Shown: positions 5,147 through 17,608 of the stretch, in pieces
Position numbering within the stretch: the first letter of the stretch is position 1
How the letters are laid out: each line of letters starts with the position of its first letter
Virus record (IMG/VR): IMGVR_UViG_3300032038_000052
Span: 1-64,000 of that record
DNA length: 64,000 bases
DNA from: a virus
Taxonomy: Duplodnaviria; Caudoviricetes
Strand: one strand, 5' to 3'
Translations under genes and position numbers: made by a program
The notes under the pieces: model-generated
What the model saw: the letters and a program-made list of their open reading frames with translations, nothing else
What the model was told of the DNA's origin: nothing
Databases searched by the model: none

Positions 5147-5410
5147 TCATGAATTCATCATTTCTGCGATGATGTTGCCGAGATTTTCAAGTTCCTCACC
5201 GCTGAGGGTGATTCCCTTGGCGCAGATTTCTTCGCCCTGGTCGTTTACCTTCCACGGGCGAAGGTCATAAACAGGGTCACGACCGTTCCACTGCATGTAA
5301 CGCAGTTTTAATGCATATCCGCCTTTCCGTTCCTGGATAGTACCGCACTCTTCGAGTACGGTGTAGTTGATTTCGTTTTCCTTTTTTGTAGCGTTCTTAA
5401 TAATAGCCAT
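5147..5410 (-). CDS. PC4/YdbC-family ssDNA-binding protein
   Basis: KLRYMQWNGRDPVYDLRPW...KGITLS.EEL..L matches the bacterial PC4 (YdbC) pattern; RBS AAGGAGGT. Confidence 0.8.
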   Translation of the reverse strand: MAIIKNATKKENEINYTVLEECGTIQERKGGYALKLRYMQWNGRDPVYDLRPWKVNDQGEEICAKGITLSGEELENLGNIIAEMMNS

Positions 5411-5554
5411 TCTAGCTACCTCCTTATTTAATATTTAGTTATTAGTTTACATACACATGATATCAAAATGTCCCGCTAGTCCCCATAGGACTATGAAACA
5501 TACAACCATTACGCAGAGATAAATCTTTTCCCTCATTTCGTTTCCTTTCTTATC

Positions 5555-5959
5555 TTATGAATGCATCATTGCAACCCACGCTGCGTCTGCGGAATAAAAT
5601 CCGAGCAGATGCGCTGCGGCCTCCTTATCCATTCCGTCTACTTTTCCGAGGGACTTGCATCCAATAATTTTTCCTTCTGAGTCACGGACGGACTCATTCG
5701 GGATGAACACATCATCCCTGTCAACACATCTCTGTGCGACAAGGGATGAAACAACATATACAGTTTCCTCCTGCGGTGCTGGAAGATCCACGACATCCGA
5801 ATATACGGATTTTGTTACAGGAATACCTGCGATTTCGCCGATTGTCTCGGTCTTTACCGAAACCCGTGCGATAGTTCCCGATGGCTCTACGGACATAAGC
5901 GGAGAACCATCAGCAGTACAAAAGTCAATTCTGTGCGGGGTAAGATTCACAATCTTCAT
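5555..5959 (-). CDS. NLTPH-motif protein, putative Crn4-like ring nuclease
   Basis: MKIVNLTPH..., PSG..AR, LP.P....YVVS, D...P....RD..G.IIGC pattern; family assignment recalled, not searched. Confidence 0.5.
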   Translation of the reverse strand: MKIVNLTPHRIDFCTADGSPLMSVEPSGTIARVSVKTETIGEIAGIPVTKSVYSDVVDLPAPQEETVYVVSSLVAQRCVDRDDVFIPNESVRDSEGKIIGCKSLGKVDGMDKEAAAHLLGFYSADAAWVAMMHS

Positions 5960-6096
5960 GTTTTTTCCTCCTAAATATATGTTTTAATATTTTGATTACA
6001 CCCCTATCCAACCACTGAAGAGCCACGTTCTCTGCAATGGTCGTAGCTTTGGGGCAGAAAGCATCATAATACTTAAGAATAGTATACTTGATGCAA

Positions 6097-6211
6097 TGAG
6101 AGCACAAGGACTCGAACCTTGCCACCAAATTTGGGATAGTTCCCCAAAACCAAATAAACCCAAAGATAATATCATCCTTGGGTTTATTGTGTGTACCAAA
6201 TATTTACTCTC
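6097..6211 (-). ncRNA. tRNA-like element with expanded central arms
   Basis: Minus strand: acceptor GAGAGTA/TGCTCTC + A73, T-arm CAAGG-TTCGAGT-CCTTG, D-like TATT-TGGTACACAC-AATA; no canonical 7-nt anticodon loop. Confidence 0.55.
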
Positions 6212-7460
6212 ATAAATGCTATGGTTATTTTACCCACTTATAGCCTTTGCTATTCCTCATCGGATTTATAGTCGGTTTGGTCGTTCTCATCTCTCATTCG
6301 ACTTTGTATAACCCAACCCCCACCATAGTAAGGGTGCTAGGTTAACGGACTTTCACTCGTCAGACTCCTAGATGGATTGCCTGGTTATCCCAATTACACC
6401 GCTGTCGGATTTGAAGAGAGTGGTATCCCACTAGCGACTCCACACAAACTAGCGTCCATGCTTCACAGTCTCCCACCTATTCTGTACATCATTCGCATCC
6501 TTGTGCCAATGAACTAGGCATAATATTGTCCTCTGCTAGACAACTTCTACATGTTGCGTGACATTATTCACCACAGGTTTTCACCACTGCGGAGTTGTTC
6601 CTATGCACAGCTTTATTCGCTTAAACGTCCCCTTATCCCATGAGTACGTATGCACGTATCTATACTTCTGTAACTTTACCGCCTTACGTCATCAACGAAA
6701 ACCAAGCATATACAAAGGTGGTTCTTCACAGCCTATCACCCCAAAATGCAGGGTTAATGAATGCTTGCTAGTTCTATGTGCTCATGCACATACAGAGCTA
6801 GTCAGTCTTAATGCTCGTACTTCTCCGACCGCATTTATCTCGTCACAGAATAATATTCCGCCACGCCTGTTATGTGCTGACCATACCTACCCCTCGGCAC
6901 AGTATGATCCCCTGTCATTCCTCGCAAAACCGCAGAGAGAAATCGGGAATAGACCCCCACACACCGTGGAGTTACCCACGTTGGATTTGATACGCATAGT
7001 CACGCTTGTGGGCATGAAAATACGCATGGTTCGTGTCACGGCTACTCTACACCGTCACGTTATAGACTACGCCCTATCCTGGCACACTGTGCACAAAGCT
7101 CTCACTCCGACCAAATGTCGTCACACAGTAGCCCCACCGCAACAGAATTACCCATACACGGCTGTGCCAATACCGCCTAAGCGCACGGTATTATACGGCT
7201 GCAGAAGCTTCCCCTTTTCGGACATAGCCACGCCTATGATTTTGTCAAGGTGCGATTTCACCCATCTTAACCGAATACATCCCCAAATCAGCGGTTTTGA
7301 AGCGCACGTTCACAAGTGACACCGCCAAATACATACAGGCTAATCCTGCTGACATTCGCAGACATGCCGACAAACACTTTTACAGATACTTGACCATGCT
7401 AAATCATGCAGACATCCTGTGTCCATCCTTATGCGCACAACCCCCATAAAATCGGGAAAC
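6212..7460 (-). ncRNA. large structured ncRNA (~1.25 kb; GOLLD-like candidate)
   Basis: No credible sense ORF, G-rich minus strand, many hairpins (e.g. 6768-6801, 7171-7190), preceded by a boxA-like site, followed by a tRNA-like element; boundaries approximate. Confidence 0.65.
6417..6489 (-). ncRNA. 23S rRNA L1-stalk (H76-H78) mimic embedded in the ncRNA
   Basis: Minus strand TGTACAGAATAGGTGGGAGACTGTGAAGCATGGACGCTAGTTTGTGTGGAGTCGCTAGTGGGATACCACTCT follows the conserved bacterial 23S GGATAGGTGGGAG..TGAAG..H78..TGGGATACCAC pattern; flanks are not rRNA. Confidence 0.8.
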
Positions 7461-7464
7461 GCAG

Positions 7465-7484
7465 TATTCGATTGTCAATGTGCG
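7465..7484 (-). promoter_or_regulatory. boxA-like antitermination element 2
   Basis: CGCACATTGACAATCGAATA, near-identical to 8444-8463; resembles Firmicutes rrn boxA. Confidence 0.55.
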
Positions 7485-7550
7485 ACCCCCTGCCAAAATG
7501 GGCAGGGACGCACCGAGCCTAACGCCTTTTTATACTCGCTCGGTCGAGTC

Positions 7551-7573
7551 TGAATAGTCGGGTGTGAGCATGG
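7551..7573 (-). repeat. 3' arm of long-range inverted repeat (pairs with 8427-8449)
   Basis: CCATG-CTCACACCCGA-C-TATTCA pairs with TGAATA-TCGGGTGTGAG-T-CATGG: 22 bp with two single-nt bulges. Confidence 0.75.
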
Positions 7574-7581
7574 CTTAATTA

Positions 7582-8253
7582 TTACTTATTCTGAGCCTTG
7601 AGAGCCTTTTTCTCGGCTTTGGTCAGAATGTGGATGAACTTGTACTTGGGCAGAATGTCGCCCATGAGGTCGCAAAGCTCGCCCATAAACACGGTTCTCC
7701 ACATGTTCTCAGTCATAGCCTTGTTGTGCTTGCCTGTTTCGGCTTTACTGCTACCTGTGCCCTTGCCCTTGCGGACGCAGTGGTAGAGCGTGTCAAGGGT
7801 ATCCCAAGCGGGAGTCAGCCCCTGTGCAGTAAGCAAGTCCGCAATCGCCTGCGTATAGGCGGATACTCTCCAAGCGCCGTTGTCATCTTCCATGGAAGCC
7901 ACGTAGGACTTATACAGGGTCTTCCCAAAGATAGCGGTAACCTTGGACACAGCCTTTTCCTGCTCTGCCTGCCAATCAGACAGACGTTTCTCAGACTCAC
8001 GGATATTCTGCTCCATCTGCGCAATCTGATCCTCATAGTACGCCTTGTCGTGGATACCGAAAGACTTCTTGTCAATCAGCTCAAGATTGGTCGCAATGAT
8101 ACCCTTGGCGTTGGCGACTTCCTGCGCTTTCTTCTTGCGCAAGTCAGCAAGTTCGAAGTCGAAGATATGCCAAATAGCCATAGTGTCACGGAATGCCTTG
8201 GCGGACTTAACGTTAAAGTTAACCTTGCCTGCGTTGATAGTTGTGTTAGTCAT
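7582..8253 (-). CDS. first early protein (223 aa), coiled-coil/basic, function unknown
   Basis: Start reassigned to MTNTT (ATG 8253, AGAAAGTGAGG RBS); GC-rich, strongly biased codons; TAA stop. Confidence 0.8.
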   Translation of the reverse strand: MTNTTINAGKVNFNVKSAKAFRDTMAIWHIFDFELADLRKKKAQEVANAKGIIATNLELIDKKSFGIHDKAYYEDQIAQMEQNIRESEKRLSDWQAEQEKAVSKVTAIFGKTLYKSYVASMEDDNGAWRVSAYTQAIADLLTAQGLTPAWDTLDTLYHCVRKGKGTGSSKAETGKHNKAMTENMWRTVFMGELCDLMGDILPKYKFIHILTKAEKKALKAQNK

Positions 8254-8426
8254 AGTAATCCTCACTTTCTGCCCACTTTTGGGGCTGTGTAAAATTTGTG
8301 TGATAATGCACTCAAAGCGCCGAGAAACAGTGTTACCCATAGTCACCTATGCACCGCAAGTCTTTCTCATACTTGTAACCTCGGACTTGCCATTCAGTTT
8401 CAGACAGTCCCTACTTTGAGTAAGTC

Positions 8427-8449
8427 CCATGACTCACACCCGATATTCA
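8427..8449 (-). repeat. 5' arm of long-range inverted repeat
   Basis: Complementary to 7551-7573; overlaps the boxA-like element, as rrn processing stems do. Confidence 0.75.
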
Positions 8450-8463
8450 ATTTTCAATGTGCG
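8444..8463 (-). promoter_or_regulatory. boxA-like antitermination element 1
   Basis: CGCACATTGAAAATTGAATA about 40 nt downstream of the predicted TSS. Confidence 0.6.
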
Positions 8464-8510
8464 CTGTCCGAACCGCTCGGCTTGTGTTCCGTTCGTTTCG
8501 AACTGTCATC

Positions 8511-8538
8511 ATTAAAGCACATTGCTGCAATCTGTCAA
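8511..8538 (-). promoter_or_regulatory. sigmaA-type early promoter
   Basis: TTGACA-N16-TTTAAT with extended TGn, pointing into the early operon. Confidence 0.65.
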
Positions 8539-9270
8539 ATCCCTTGTATTTTCGGGCTTTTTCGACAAATTACAGTTTATAGAAATTGTCGATTGGGGGG
8601 TGGTTTCAGCGGACTAACTCCTTAAATCCTGGACGTTCCTGGAAGCAGTTCTCTTAAAATACTCACTCCAAAACCCAAATATTGTCCACAAATTCAACGC
8701 TTCACCAACCAATTTATGGAATATCGAAAAGCCTATCGCATTTAATTAATGCAAAACCAAAACAAGCCATTTTCCGGGCAAGACTTTTTAAAGCCAAGGA
8801 ATCCACAAAATCGCCTTAAAACATAGGTGACATATAAAAAATAATCCATCGAAAAATCCCAGCCACAAAGGCGGCCACTAAATATCCATTGCGTGAGAAG
8901 TCCAGGTCGCCGCCGCACTCAAAATCCTGGTGCGTACTCCAACCCCCTCGCTAGCCAAAACCTTCTATTCAATAGTCACCACCACCACCTAGCTCTCTGC
9001 TACTGAATTTCTTTTCTCAATGCGTACATAAATATTGGATTTTCATGATCTATGTGCGTACAACCATTTATCTAGGAGTACAAAGTTATTGTGAACTGGC
9101 TGCAGAGCGTAGCGTCGCAGACAGTTCACCCTCAAGCCCCAAGAGTGGGGCGGCCCAGAGCGAAGCCTGGGTGAGGTTGGGGTTGACATATCTCAAACAT
9201 TCGAATATACTTTTGTCGAAAATATTGTCATTTAATATTTAGCTGTTAAAACTCGCAGAGGAGATTGTCT

Positions 9271-13495: not shown

Positions 13496-14093
13496 ATGCT
13501 AAATTCTGTTCATAACTAGTAACTCAGTGCAGAGCGGTTAATCACCGTGCTGAGAGCGTCTGTATTTCGGAGTGGTTTTGTATGGGATACTTTATATTAC
13601 TACTCCCCCACTTGTCGTGAGGCAATAAAGGATACTGGCTAAAAGCCTAAAGAAAAGGATGTGTACTGAGATTATATGTAGTCAAAGGTTGTGTCTGGTC
13701 GTCCTCATAATAGCACCGTGAGGAGCGGGAAACCCTGATGCCTATGGGCTGGTAACCTATAGGAGGGCAAGTAGGGGAACACCAAATAAGAGGATTTGTC
13801 GTGAAACAGAGAAATCTGTGTATAAGATCAGTTCAACGAGTGAGTAGCCCAAGACAACGAATTTCAATGAAAATATTGGCATGTAGTGGAACATGCGTAT
13901 GTTATCATTCTGAATGATGGGTGAAAGTTACAGGTAACCAATCCTGTATGTGCGGAGGCTGGTGTATTCCAGTGTGGCAAGAAGTTTATAGGCGACGGCT
14001 TATAGGCTCAGACTTGTTATCACATTGACCGAATATGGGTGCGTATAATCGAGGCAAGGCGAAGGTCTACTTTTTGTGTACAGAATTTAGTGT
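13496..14093 (+). ncRNA. ~600-nt structured ncRNA, ROOL-like candidate
   Basis: Closing 14-bp stem 13496-13509/14080-14093; nested hairpins (TCCTCA..TGAGGA, CCTATGGG..CCTATAGG, CAGG-TAACCAAT-CCTG); no ORF; followed by a tRNA. Confidence 0.65.
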
Positions 14094-14191
14094 TTAATTC
14101 GTGGTTGATATTTTCGGCCCACCACCTGGTACGTCAAGCTGGGAAATTCTAGTGGGAGACCCGCTACAAGGAGAGGTTGTGCTCTCTACTT

Positions 14192-14262
14192 AGAGTATGT
14201 GGTGTAATGGTAGCACGCTTGGTTTGGGACCATGAGGAGGCGTTCAAGTCGCACATATTCTA
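14192..14262 (+). tRNA. tRNA-Pro(TGG), imperfect stems
   Basis: D-arm GTGT-AATGGTA-GCAC, anticodon loop TT-TGG-GA, T-loop TTCAAGT; mismatches in T and anticodon stems; no CCA. Confidence 0.7.
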
Positions 14263-14306
14263 TTTATCAGTAAGCATTTACTGAAATACATTGAAGGAGA
14301 ATATAA

Positions 14307-17552: not shown

Positions 17553-17608
17553 TTCTGTGGCGCAATAGGTAGCGCAACTGATCTATGGTTCAAATCCATA
17601 CACAGAAA
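17553..17608 (+). pseudogene. tRNA lacking the anticodon arm (56 nt)
   Basis: TTCTGTG/CACAGAA stem, GCGC-AATAGGTA-GCGC D-arm, TATGG-TTCAAAT-CCATA T-arm; only AACTGATC between them. Confidence 0.6.

What the first reader, a model, noticed from the sequence alone, without database searches (positions are those of the whole stretch)
6212..7460. About 1.25-kb ornate ncRNA in the early transcript (GOLLD-like candidate)
The region has no credible sense ORF, a strong G skew on the transcribed strand and dense hairpins. It shares short motifs with the second large RNA at 13.5-14.1 kb (ATGGGTGAAA, CCTGTATGT, CGTATAAT, GAGTAGCC), though in a different order. Established: GOLLD and ROOL are large phage-associated RNAs often adjacent to tRNAs, recently shown to form multimeric RNA-only assemblies. 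This one is longer than typical GOLLD. If it is GOLLD-like, the L1 stalk could be a functional insert in a variable region; if not, it is a new class.
Basis: partly seen in the sequence, partly recalled or inferred. Interest (0 to 1): 0.78.

Follow-up and report, generated by a model that had tools for sequence, protein, structure and literature searches.

The report
New giant phage RNA with ribosome-stalk graft
This stretch of a cattle-rumen phage encodes a previously undescribed, roughly 1.27-kb folded non-coding RNA that is cut out of an early transcript by a self-cleaving ribozyme on one side and a tRNA-shaped signal on the other, and that carries a near-exact copy of a moving arm of the ribosome, which hints that the phage uses it to engage the host's translation machinery.

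Summary
Window 6212-7485 (minus strand) has no ORF, shows no codon periodicity, and is conserved and heavily base-paired.

It is not GOLLD or ROOL. Rfam finds neither, even at E<=1. It finds only a Pistol ribozyme directly upstream (7549-7481) and a 72-nt 23S L1-stalk copy inside (6488-6417).

I found ten relatives in metagenome or MAG contigs, all behind the same 223-aa gene.
- Covariation is strong. Full length, 5 sequences: 115 of 338 pairs are compensatory, against 22-28 in slid controls. 3' core, 8 sequences: 24 of 42, with 0 of 500 shuffles reaching this.
- Every full-length member ends in a tRNA-like cloverleaf (window 6211-6097) whose acceptor and T stems covary.
- In one relative a second tRNA-like element replaces Pistol.

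My reading is that the RNA is excised as a discrete molecule, by Pistol at the 5' end and RNase P/Z at the 3' end.

The L1-stalk head occurs in only one clade. It looks like a grafted module that probably binds uL1 and/or tRNA elbows. Function is otherwise unknown.

The parts
7582..8346 (-). Conserved upstream gene, always linked to the RNA. The ORF as listed is 254 aa. The homologues are about 223 aa and conservation starts at M32, so the real start is probably 8253.
   Evidence: ORF list. 33 homologous protein clusters. Alignment A1. No Pfam or PHROG family. AF2 model is all-helical with pLDDT 83 and residues 1-33 disordered; no PDB fold match.
7481..7549 (-). Pistol self-cleaving ribozyme, 32 nt after the gene's stop codon. 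The cleavage in the GG^U linker is predicted to leave the downstream RNA starting at U7485 with a 5'-OH.
   Evidence: RF02679, 72.1 bits against a gathering score of 34.5, full length 1-68. The same element sits at the same place in L012-L020 with 44-77 bits. The cleavage position comes from established pistol biochemistry and structures (PMC4604425 and my own knowledge). It was not assayed here.
6212..7485 (-). Body of the large structured RNA (1274 nt).
   Evidence: Homologues at about 70% identity over about 900 nt. RNAalifold gives 338 pairs, 89.5% canonical, 115 with compensatory change against 22-28 in slid controls. A single-sequence MFE carried over to the relatives keeps 66-78% of pairs against 36-44% when slid. 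No codon periodicity.
7258..7485 (-). 5' domain, closed by long-range helices (7485-7477/7266-7258, 7472-7464/7278-7270, 7460-7452/7286-7279). It contains a duplicated ~30-nt ...GUCUGUA motif.
   Evidence: Helices with 3-4 compensatory pairs each and a 15-bp hairpin with 7. The domain is recognisable right after Pistol in L018 and right after a tRNA-like element in L022.
6383..6530 (-). Long protruding arm that carries the L1-stalk head.
   Evidence: An 18-bp basal helix plus further helices in the consensus fold. In L013 the arm has a different tip.
6417..6488 (-). Copy of the 23S rRNA L1 stalk (H76-H78, with both T-loops).
   Evidence: RF02541 positions 2135-2206, 50.7 bits (gathering 50), E 2e-13, posterior 1.00. 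All but one upper-case consensus positions are identical. The exception, UGAaA to UGGGA, still fits UGNNA (PMC3664808). L015's copy scores 51.7 bits. H78 shows compensatory changes between phage copies.
6220..6396 (-). Most conserved 3' core (GGGAUAAC ... GUGAAAGUC loop ... AAAGUCGAAUGA / CCGACUAUAAAUCCGAUGAGG ... CUAUAAGUGGG ... AAUAAC).
   Evidence: Model R1 finds it full length in distant members: L016 41 bits, L017 34, L019 29, L022 19. On 8 sequences, 24 of 42 pairs have changes on both sides; 0 of 500 shuffles reach that and slid controls give 6-9.
6097..6211 (-). 3' tRNA-like structure. Acceptor stem: G6211-A6205 pairs with U6104-C6098. A long hairpin sits in the D-arm position. Anticodon-like hairpin: 6148-6130. 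A 7-nt linker follows. T arm: 6121-6105 (CAAGG-UUCGAGU-CCUUG). Discriminator: A6097.
   Evidence: MFE folds give a cloverleaf independently in the window, L013, L024, L019 and L022. A unique perfect 7/7 acceptor match lies at the homologous place in 5 copies and 6/7 in the rest. Acceptor and T stems covary across 10 copies. ARAGORN calls the L019 and L022 copies aberrant tRNAs. The window's copy is not called and there is no Rfam tRNA hit.
6153..6188 (-). 16-bp hairpin followed by a U-rich run. It looks like an intrinsic terminator but lies inside the tRNA-like structure, at the D-arm position.
   Evidence: Terminator scan. Equivalent hairpins exist in L014 and L015, a weaker one in L020, and none in L013.

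Best explanation
This is a member of a previously undescribed family of 1.0-1.3-kb highly structured phage RNAs. It is made as part of the leftward early transcript and then released as a discrete molecule.

Steps of the model:
1. The Pistol ribozyme just downstream of the conserved 223-aa gene cuts itself. The mRNA keeps the ribozyme at its 3' end, and the big RNA starts at U7485.
2. At the other end, a tRNA-like cloverleaf (6211-6097) is recognised by the host's tRNA-processing enzymes. RNase P cuts before G6211 and RNase Z cuts after A6097. This separates the RNA body (7485-6212) from the downstream early mRNAs, in the way MALAT1 is separated from mascRNA.
3. The body folds into a 5' domain, a central region and a very conserved 3' core.
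4. In one clade, which includes this phage, a long arm has acquired a near-exact copy of the 23S rRNA L1-stalk head. That head most likely recruits ribosomal protein uL1. As in the ribosome, T-box leaders and RNase P, it may also dock the elbow of a tRNA or of the RNA's own tRNA-like tail.
5. On this model the RNA would work as an early-expressed RNA or RNP scaffold or decoy that touches the translation apparatus.

Shown here: non-coding status, conservation, covarying structure, the Pistol match, the L1-stalk match, the covarying tRNA-like fold, and the swap of Pistol for a tRNA-like element in one relative.

Inferred: actual cleavage at both ends, uL1 or tRNA binding, and any downstream effect.
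For: - Not GOLLD or ROOL, and no other Rfam family, at E<=1.
- Non-coding.
- Family of 10 relatives with gene, processing element, RNA and tRNA-like element in the same order.
- Covariation over the full length and in the 3' core with distant members.
- Pistol at 66-77 bits in eight relatives and 44 in truncated L012.
- L022 has no Pistol even at E<=0.5. Instead it has a T-arm/acceptor element ending 8 nt before the RNA's conserved 5' block. So a ribozyme and a tRNA-like signal are interchangeable at that position, which only makes sense if the job is to cut there.
- tRNA-like cloverleaf with covarying acceptor and T stems and a canonical UUCGAGU T-loop.
- L1-stalk head at Rfam gathering score in two members, conserved with compensatory H78 changes in five, and absent from the other clade.
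- Published precedents. The double T-loop of the L1 stalk, RNase P and T-box docks tRNA elbows (PMC3664808, PMC4810234). L1 binds the same motif on rRNA and on its own mRNA (PMC2175363). Ribozymes process tRNA ends in recoded gut phages (PMC10879173). GOLLD and ROOL lie near tRNAs, and GOLLD pulls down ribosomes (10.1101/2024.12.08.627333).
Against: - There are no expression or end-mapping data of any kind.
- The alignment is shallow: 5 well-aligned full-length sequences plus 4-5 distant ones. No formal R-scape test was possible.
- The consensus fold came from the same alignment it was scored on. This is mitigated by the slid controls, the single-sequence transfer and the distant members.
- The window's tRNA-like element is not recognised by ARAGORN or the Rfam tRNA model. 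It carries a terminator-like hairpin in its middle. If transcription stops there, the cloverleaf is never completed and the 3' end is made by termination instead.
- RNase P could equally leave the tRNA-like part attached if the acceptor stem is occluded.
- The L1-stalk module is missing from half of the family, so it cannot be the family's core function.
- The LSU match sits only just at the gathering score (50.7 against 50). L014, L020 and L024 were not reported by cmscan, although their sequences align.
- I could not confirm an E. coli-type boxA near the operon start.
Confidence: 0.6

Rival explanations
1. It is a divergent GOLLD or ROOL RNA, that is, a homologue of a known cage-forming phage RNA.
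For: It is phage-borne, very large, ornate and next to a tRNA-like element, as GOLLD and ROOL often are (10.1101/2024.12.08.627333). There is a modest excess of shared 8-10-mers with the phage's own ROOL.
Against: No GOLLD or ROOL covariance-model hit exists even at E<=1, while ROOL at 13499-14087 scores 307 bits in the same scan. None of the relatives hits either. The shared words are scattered and in a different order. The length is about twice that of ROOL.
Confidence: 0.04
2. It is not a stand-alone RNA but a long cis-acting spacer or leader of the early operon. In this reading it is a folded stretch that insulates, stabilises or times the expression of the flanking mRNAs, with the ribozyme and tRNA-like element serving only mRNA processing.
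For: It sits inside a polycistronic early transcript between two protein genes. Cleavage at both ends would also give the flanking mRNAs defined, structured ends.
Against: More than 1 kb of sequence with about 340 conserved pairs, invariant loops and a grafted rRNA module is far more than a spacer needs. Conservation is highest in the interior, not at the junctions. The RNA is kept while the 5' processing device is swapped.
Confidence: 0.15
3. The 3' end is made by intrinsic termination at the 6188-6153 hairpin. The tRNA-like remainder downstream would be a decayed tRNA gene, or an attachment or homing remnant, with no role in maturing the RNA.
For: A 16-bp hairpin plus U run is detected as terminator-like. 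Similar hairpins occur in L014 and L015. This phage has other tRNA stumps linked to homing nucleases (earlier notes; T-arm at 17584).
Against: The acceptor 5' strand lies upstream of the hairpin and its partner lies downstream, and they covary across the family. That is not expected of a dead remnant. L013 has no such hairpin and L020 has no U run. Downstream early genes must be transcribed through this point.
Confidence: 0.15
4. The region is protein-coding after all (antisense 253-aa ORF, or a sense ORF read with TAG=Gln).
For: A 253-aa ORF is open on the plus strand. With TAG=Q, sense ORFs of 73-85 aa appear.
Against: It has no homologues. The ORF is not preserved in relatives. There is no codon periodicity of substitutions. 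Indels are not multiples of three, and compensatory base-pair changes run throughout.
Confidence: 0.02
5. It is a captured, decaying piece of host rRNA or a degenerate intron or mobile element without function.
For: It contains 72 nt that are 77% identical to Firmicute 23S rRNA.
Against: Only the L1-stalk head is rRNA-like; nothing else matches LSU or SSU, and no group I or II intron model matches at E<=1. The module keeps its pairing through compensatory changes between phages. The surrounding 1.2 kb is conserved and covaries in phages that lack the module.
Confidence: 0.03

Closest known systems
GOLLD (RF01998) and ROOL (RF03087), giant ornate phage/prophage RNAs
   Same: Phage-encoded, very large, elaborately folded, function unknown, next to tRNA(-like) genes. 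This very phage also carries a true ROOL followed by tRNA-Pro.
   Different: No sequence or structure homology by covariance model. It is about 1.27 kb, against about 0.6 kb for ROOL and more than 0.8 kb for GOLLD. It sits inside an early operon behind a self-cleaving ribozyme and carries an rRNA module. Multimeric cage formation is untested.
MALAT1/MEN-beta with mascRNA, and tRNA punctuation of polycistronic transcripts
   Same: A long non-coding RNA whose 3' end abuts a tRNA-like cloverleaf that RNase P/Z can cut. The acceptor plus T-arm minihelix is intact and covaries.
   Different: Those systems are eukaryotic or organellar. Cleavage here is only predicted. The cloverleaf has a 5-nt 'anticodon' loop and a long hairpin in place of the D arm.
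Theta (HDV-like) ribozymes next to tRNAs in TAG-recoded gut phages (PMC10879173)
   Same: Small self-cleaving ribozymes used by recoded gut or rumen phages to set RNA ends instead of protein nucleases. The host-phage setting is the same.
   Different: A different ribozyme class (Pistol). It frees a 1.3-kb ncRNA's 5' end rather than trimming a tRNA 3' trailer.
23S rRNA L1 stalk (H76-H78) and its relatives: the double T-loop modules of T-box Stem I and RNase P, and the L1-binding site on L11-operon mRNA
   Same: The head matches the LSU model at gathering score, with the AG..A / UG..A T-loop cores intact (PMC3664808). It sits on the tip of a long helix, as in the ribosome.
   Different: It is outside a ribosome, in a phage ncRNA, and present in only one clade of the family. 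Binding of uL1 or tRNA is untested.
OLE RNA (proposed to sequester ribosomal protein bS21)
   Same: A large structured bacterial RNA proposed to hold a ribosomal protein (10.1101/2024.12.08.627333).
   Different: No homology. OLE is chromosomal and membrane-associated. Here the protein site is a literal rRNA copy.

Membership tests
GOLLD RNA (RF01998) | Match to the family covariance model at or near gathering score | tested here: not met
   No hit in the whole window at gathering score, nor in 5400-9000 at E<=1. None in relatives.
ROOL RNA (RF03087) | Match to the family covariance model | tested here: not met
   No hit in the region at E<=1. The positive control in the same window, 13499-14087, scores 307 bits.
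GOLLD/ROOL kind | Phage-borne and adjacent to tRNA genes | tested here: met
   The record is a virus record. A tRNA-like cloverleaf directly follows the RNA in all full-length members.
GOLLD/ROOL kind | Self-assembly into a symmetric RNA-only multimer | not testable with these tools
   Needs cryo-EM, SEC-MALS or native gels.
Pistol ribozyme (RF02679) | Covariance-model match with the conserved core and pseudoknot | tested here: met
   72.1 bits against 34.5, model positions 1-68. 44-77 bits in nine relatives.
Pistol ribozyme (RF02679) | Self-cleavage at the G-U junction | not testable with these tools
   Requires an in vitro transcription and cleavage assay.
23S rRNA L1 stalk (H76-H78) | Local match to the bacterial LSU model over H76-H78 | tested here: met
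   50.7 bits (gathering 50), E 2e-13, positions 2135-2206. L015 scores 51.7 bits. This is marginal relative to the cut-off.
23S rRNA L1 stalk (H76-H78) | [quoted passage not shown] UGNNA) | tested here: met
   GGGAGACUGUGAA and UGGGAUACC are read directly from the cmscan alignment. The criterion is from PMC3664808. L014 has one change in the conserved GGAG.
23S rRNA L1 stalk (H76-H78) | Binds ribosomal protein uL1 or docks a tRNA elbow | not testable with these tools
   Needs binding assays.
tRNA | Recognised by the tRNA covariance model or ARAGORN, with a 7-nt anticodon loop and a D arm | tested here: not met
   No RF00005 hit at E<=1. ARAGORN finds nothing in the window copy even when relaxed. 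The loop is 5-7 nt and non-canonical. The copies in L019 and L022 are called, with odd arms.
tRNA-like structure (RNase P/Z substrate) | 7-bp acceptor stem stacked on a 5-bp T stem with a UUCRANY T-loop, conserved by covariation | tested here: met
   Acceptor pairs vary through GC/AU/UA/CG types across 10 copies. T-stem positions 49-51/63-65 show 3-5 pair types.
Group I / group II introns, RNase P RNA, tmRNA, OLE, HEARO, raiA | Match to the Rfam model | tested here: not met
   Only Pistol and the LSU fragment are reported at E<=1 in 5400-9000.

The most novel reading that the evidence does not exclude
A third, unrelated class of giant phage RNA that works as a ribosome-part mimic. On this reading the excised 1.27-kb RNA displays a functional L1-stalk head that captures uL1 and/or the elbows of tRNAs, possibly including its own tRNA-like tail, which would allow head-to-tail multimers. 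In that way it would reprogramme or protect translation early in infection of a phage that later switches TAG from stop to glutamine. It would also give Pistol ribozymes their first defined biological job.
Probability: 0.3. Interest if true: 0.92.

Novelty: new variant of a known kind. Interest (0 to 1): 0.8.

Why it matters
Very few classes of bacterial or phage RNA longer than 500 nt are known (GOLLD, ROOL, OLE, HEARO, raiA), and the functions of most remain unresolved. This family adds one with unusually informative handles.
- It has defined ends, set by a ribozyme and a tRNA-like signal.
- It has an obligatory protein-gene partner.
- In one clade it carries a module whose binding partners in the ribosome are known (uL1, tRNA elbow).

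That turns 'what do giant phage RNAs do?' into direct binding and structure experiments. It also offers a concrete role for Pistol ribozymes, whose biology is unknown. It would be a bacterial-virus example of MALAT1-style tRNA-like 3' end formation, and an example of an rRNA domain being grafted into another RNA as a portable module.

At the level of RNA families it is new: there is no Rfam match, and I found no paper describing it. I rate it 'new variant of a known kind' only because large ornate phage RNAs beside tRNAs already exist as a phenomenon.

Tried and rejected
- GenBank phage hits to the region (Staphylococcus 'SA 1298 Kay', Paenibacillus Pd_22F) turned out to be complete 23S rRNA genes inside those records. 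They are not phage L1-stalk mimics.
- Phages related through the RNA polymerase gene (L003-L011) have no Pistol, no ROOL and no homologue of this RNA. The neighbour-gene relative L002 has no non-coding gap.
- Two pattern scans of IMG/VR with conserved motifs found nothing.
- The genome-collection scan gave one true homologue (L024) and three chance hits, which is about the number expected by chance.
The ~30 Logan/ENA contigs that carry the linked gene could therefore not be fetched, which limits alignment depth.
- The genome search 'relatives' is not available for virus records. ROOL co-occurrence in the relatives could not be tested because three loci are not held.
- The upstream protein gave no family and no fold match.
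- RNAalifold's long-range helix 7254-7249/6197-6192 (UGUACC/GGUACA) was rejected. It has 5 of 30 non-pairs, only 4 of 6 pairs in the window, and it crosses the well-supported acceptor stem. The invariant GGUAC more likely plays the part of a D-loop GG.
- RNAalifold's local hairpin inside the L1 head conflicts with the canonical H76 pairing given by cmscan, and I disregarded it.
- I considered an RNase P-like P4 or a hammerhead core, because of GUGAAAGUCC and CGAUGAG. I dropped this: those segments lie in covarying local hairpins or junctions, and no model hits.
- An E. coli-consensus boxA is not found near the operon start.
- No leader-to-RNA long inverted repeat involves 7380-7485.
Full report
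**What is at the coordinates**

The window is the first 64 kb of a 78.6-kb IMG/VR virus record. An Rfam scan of the whole window gives five hits:
- ROOL at 13499-14087 (+), 307 bits;
- two tRNAs;
- on the minus strand inside or beside the finding, a Pistol ribozyme at 7549-7481 (72.1 bits, gathering 34.5);
- a fragment of bacterial 23S rRNA, model positions 2135-2206, at 6488-6417 (50.7 bits, gathering 50).

A permissive rescan of 5400-9000 at E<=1 adds nothing. There is no GOLLD, ROOL, intron, RNase P, tmRNA or tRNA model hit.

**Non-coding status**

The RNA strand of 6214-7485 has 77 stops in three frames, and the longest open run is 55 codons. The antisense 253-aa ORF finds only itself among 5.8 billion proteins and is not kept open in homologous loci. 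Substitutions among four homologues are spread evenly over the three phases (193/178/177, p=0.64). The upstream gene, treated the same way, gives 175/87/115 (p=1e-7). The G excess is real (+0.23), but the whole leftward early region shares it.

**Relatives**

Phages related through the RNA polymerase gene do not carry the element.
- Nine of them have a Pistol ribozyme directly after the gene.
- blastn and nhmmer show the big RNA itself at ~70% identity over ~900 nt in L014, L015 and L020.
- L013 carries a shorter, more diverged version.
- L016, L017, L018, L019 and L022 carry collinear conserved blocks.
- A motif scan of GTDB genomes added L024, a contig of a 'Saccharibacteria' MAG that starts inside the RNA.
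- IMG/VR holds no other copy. The scan's own index has no look-alike on other DNA.

Body lengths, from ribozyme cut to tRNA-like +1, are 1274 nt here, ~1215-1243 in L014, L015 and L020, ~1091 in L013 and ~1015-1053 in L016, L019 and L022 (coordinates).

**Structure**

RNAalifold on five full-length sequences predicts 261 pairs, 93 with compensatory change. With ribosum scoring it predicts 338 pairs. Of these, 89.5% of cells are canonical and 115 pairs are compensatory, against 35-45% and 22-28 when the 3' partners are slid by 1-3 columns.

That fold was derived from the same alignment, so I also folded each sequence alone and carried its pairs over to the others. This kept 66-78% of pairs for the four close sequences (54% for L013), against 34-45% when slid.

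A covariance model of the 3' core (R1) found full-length matches in distant members that were not used to build it: L016 41 bits, L017 34, L019 29, L022 19. On the resulting 8-sequence alignment, 24 of 42 pairs change on both sides. The shuffle mean is 13.4, 0 of 500 shuffles reach 24, and slid controls give 6-9.

The RNA is therefore a genuine, conserved, highly structured molecule. It has a 5' domain closed by long-range helices, a large central region and a very conserved 3' core.

**The 5' end**

Pistol lies 32 nt after the gene's stop codon. From established pistol biochemistry, cleavage falls in the G-U of the linker between P3 and the 3' strand of P2 (PMC4604425; the position is from my knowledge of the crystal structures). 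That places the first nucleotide of the downstream RNA at U7485. It leaves the ribozyme on the mRNA.

**The 3' end**

Every member whose 3' side is on the contig has a GGUUCGAnUCC T-arm about 100 nt past the conserved core. Folding each region alone gives a cloverleaf in the window, L013, L024, L019 and L022. Its parts in the window are:
- a 7-9-bp acceptor stem whose 5' strand (G6211-A6205) lies just after the core's AAUAAC block;
- a variable hairpin in the D-arm position;
- an anticodon-like hairpin (loop AGUAC in four members, GAACUAU in the window, GAUUAAA-type in the distant clade);
- a 7-nt linker;
- the T arm;
- the acceptor 3' strand (U6104-C6098).

An automated search finds a unique perfect 7/7 complement at the homologous place in five copies and 6/7 in the others. 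Both stems covary, for example GAGAGUA/UGCUCUC, GAGGGUA/UGCCCUC, GAGAGUG/CACUCUU, AGGUAU/AUACCU and UAUGCUG/CAGCAUA. ARAGORN calls the L019 and L022 copies as odd tRNAs. It does not call the window's copy, and the Rfam tRNA model does not hit it. It is therefore tRNA-like rather than a tRNA.

**The swap in L022**

The most telling observation comes from L022. It has no Pistol even at E<=0.5. In exactly that place it carries a second small acceptor/T-arm element, which ends 8 nt before the RNA's conserved 5' block. A ribozyme and a tRNA-like element are thus interchangeable there, which fits a shared job of cutting the transcript.

I infer RNase P cleavage before G6211 and RNase Z cleavage after A6097. 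No CCA is encoded, and the trailers are U-rich in L014 and L015.

One caveat applies. In the window, L014 and L015 the D-position hairpin looks like an intrinsic terminator. Termination at ~6150 is therefore a live alternative for a fraction of transcripts.

**The L1-stalk copy**

The cmscan alignment has posterior 1.00 throughout. Every upper-case consensus position but one is identical, and the exception (UGAaA to UGGGA) still fits the UGNNA T-loop pattern (PMC3664808). The module sits on the tip of a long arm (6530-6383). It is present in the window, L014, L015, L020 and L024 and absent from L013, L016, L017, L019 and L022. Its H78 helix differs between phages through compensatory changes.

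It is thus a maintained, clade-specific graft on an older scaffold.

The module is the natural binding site of uL1 (PMC2175363). [quoted passage not shown] The most economical inference is therefore uL1 recruitment and/or docking of a tRNA elbow, possibly that of the RNA's own tail, whose T-loop is canonical. This is inference only.

**Relation to ROOL**

The number of shared 8-, 9- and 10-mers is about twice the expectation. The shared words are scattered, several map to one ROOL segment (13912-13933), and their order differs. I read this as similar composition and loop vocabulary, not homology.

**Context**

- Divergent promoter-like sites lie at ~9183-9249.
- The RNA is inside the leftward early operon.
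- The linked 223-aa protein is all-helical, with no family or fold match.
- Earlier notes of this scan say the phage reads TAG as Gln in late genes and that its early genes are code-neutral. I did not retest that.
- An earlier follow-up described rRNA-operon-like signals upstream. I confirmed the Pistol and the family, but found no E. coli-type boxA.

**Literature**

Full-text searches found no paper that links Pistol to GOLLD/ROOL-type RNAs, none on an L1-stalk mimic in a phage ncRNA, and none describing this family. The closest precedents are theta ribozymes at phage tRNAs (PMC10879173), GOLLD/ROOL (10.1101/2024.12.08.627333) and tRNA-like 3' processing of MALAT1 (my knowledge).

**Verdict**

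'GOLLD-like' is rejected as membership. The element is a new family of giant structured phage RNA, with ribozyme and tRNA-like punctuation and, in this clade, a grafted ribosomal L1-stalk head.

My confidence by claim:
- that it is a real structured ncRNA: ~0.9;
- in the excision model: ~0.6;
- in uL1 or tRNA-elbow binding: ~0.35.

Noticed in passing
L022:1853-1912 and L022:2965-3057: In this 104-kb metagenome contig the big RNA is flanked on both sides by tRNA-like elements and has no Pistol. ARAGORN calls the 3' one a 93-nt 'tRNA-Pyl (cta)', an aberrant amber-suppressor-like tRNA.
   Followed up: partly
L005:5067-5137 (minus strand): A related phage (RNA polymerase 69% identical) lacks this RNA. 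It has an HDV-like ribozyme (RF02682, 46.4 bits) between small genes of its leftward early operon, so it uses a different ribozyme in a comparable place.
   Followed up: no
L024:1-1331 and L024:2870-2906: A 54-kb contig binned into a 'Candidatus Saccharibacteria' MAG starts inside a near-identical copy of L020's RNA, so it is probably a mis-binned phage contig. It also has an abiF RNA motif hit (44.5 bits).
   Followed up: no
window 8253-9200 (minus strand): Between the promoter-like sites (~9204-9231) and the probable start of the conserved gene (M32, 8253) lie ~900 nt with only short ORFs and the same G-rich strand bias. This may be a long structured leader.
   Followed up: no
window 13499-14263: The phage's ROOL RNA is followed ~100 nt later by tRNA-Pro (14191-14263). 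This parallels the big RNA plus tRNA-like arrangement at 6-7.5 kb.
   Followed up: partly
L027 (MZ092003.1 80403-85474) and L028 (OR850160.1): Two GenBank 'phage' records contain complete 23S (and 5S) rRNA genes. In Pd_22F they are annotated over with small hypothetical proteins. This is probably host contamination or mis-assembly.
   Followed up: partly
window 7350-7430 and homologous L014:1030-1130: The 5' domain contains two tandem copies of a ~30-nt unit (…AUGUCnGC…UGAG…GUCUGUA) conserved across the family. Its role is unknown.
   Followed up: no
window 6192-6196, and the AGUAC loops of the tRNA-like hairpin in L013, L014, L015 and L020: An invariant GGUAC lies after the acceptor 5' strand, and an AGUAC hairpin loop both contain the self-complementary GUAC. 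This could be an intramolecular or an intermolecular kissing contact.
   Followed up: no
L022:4704-4803: Weak, sub-threshold match to the ribosomal protein L20 leader (33 bits against a gathering score of 58.7, E 0.007) downstream of the RNA in a distant family member.
   Followed up: no
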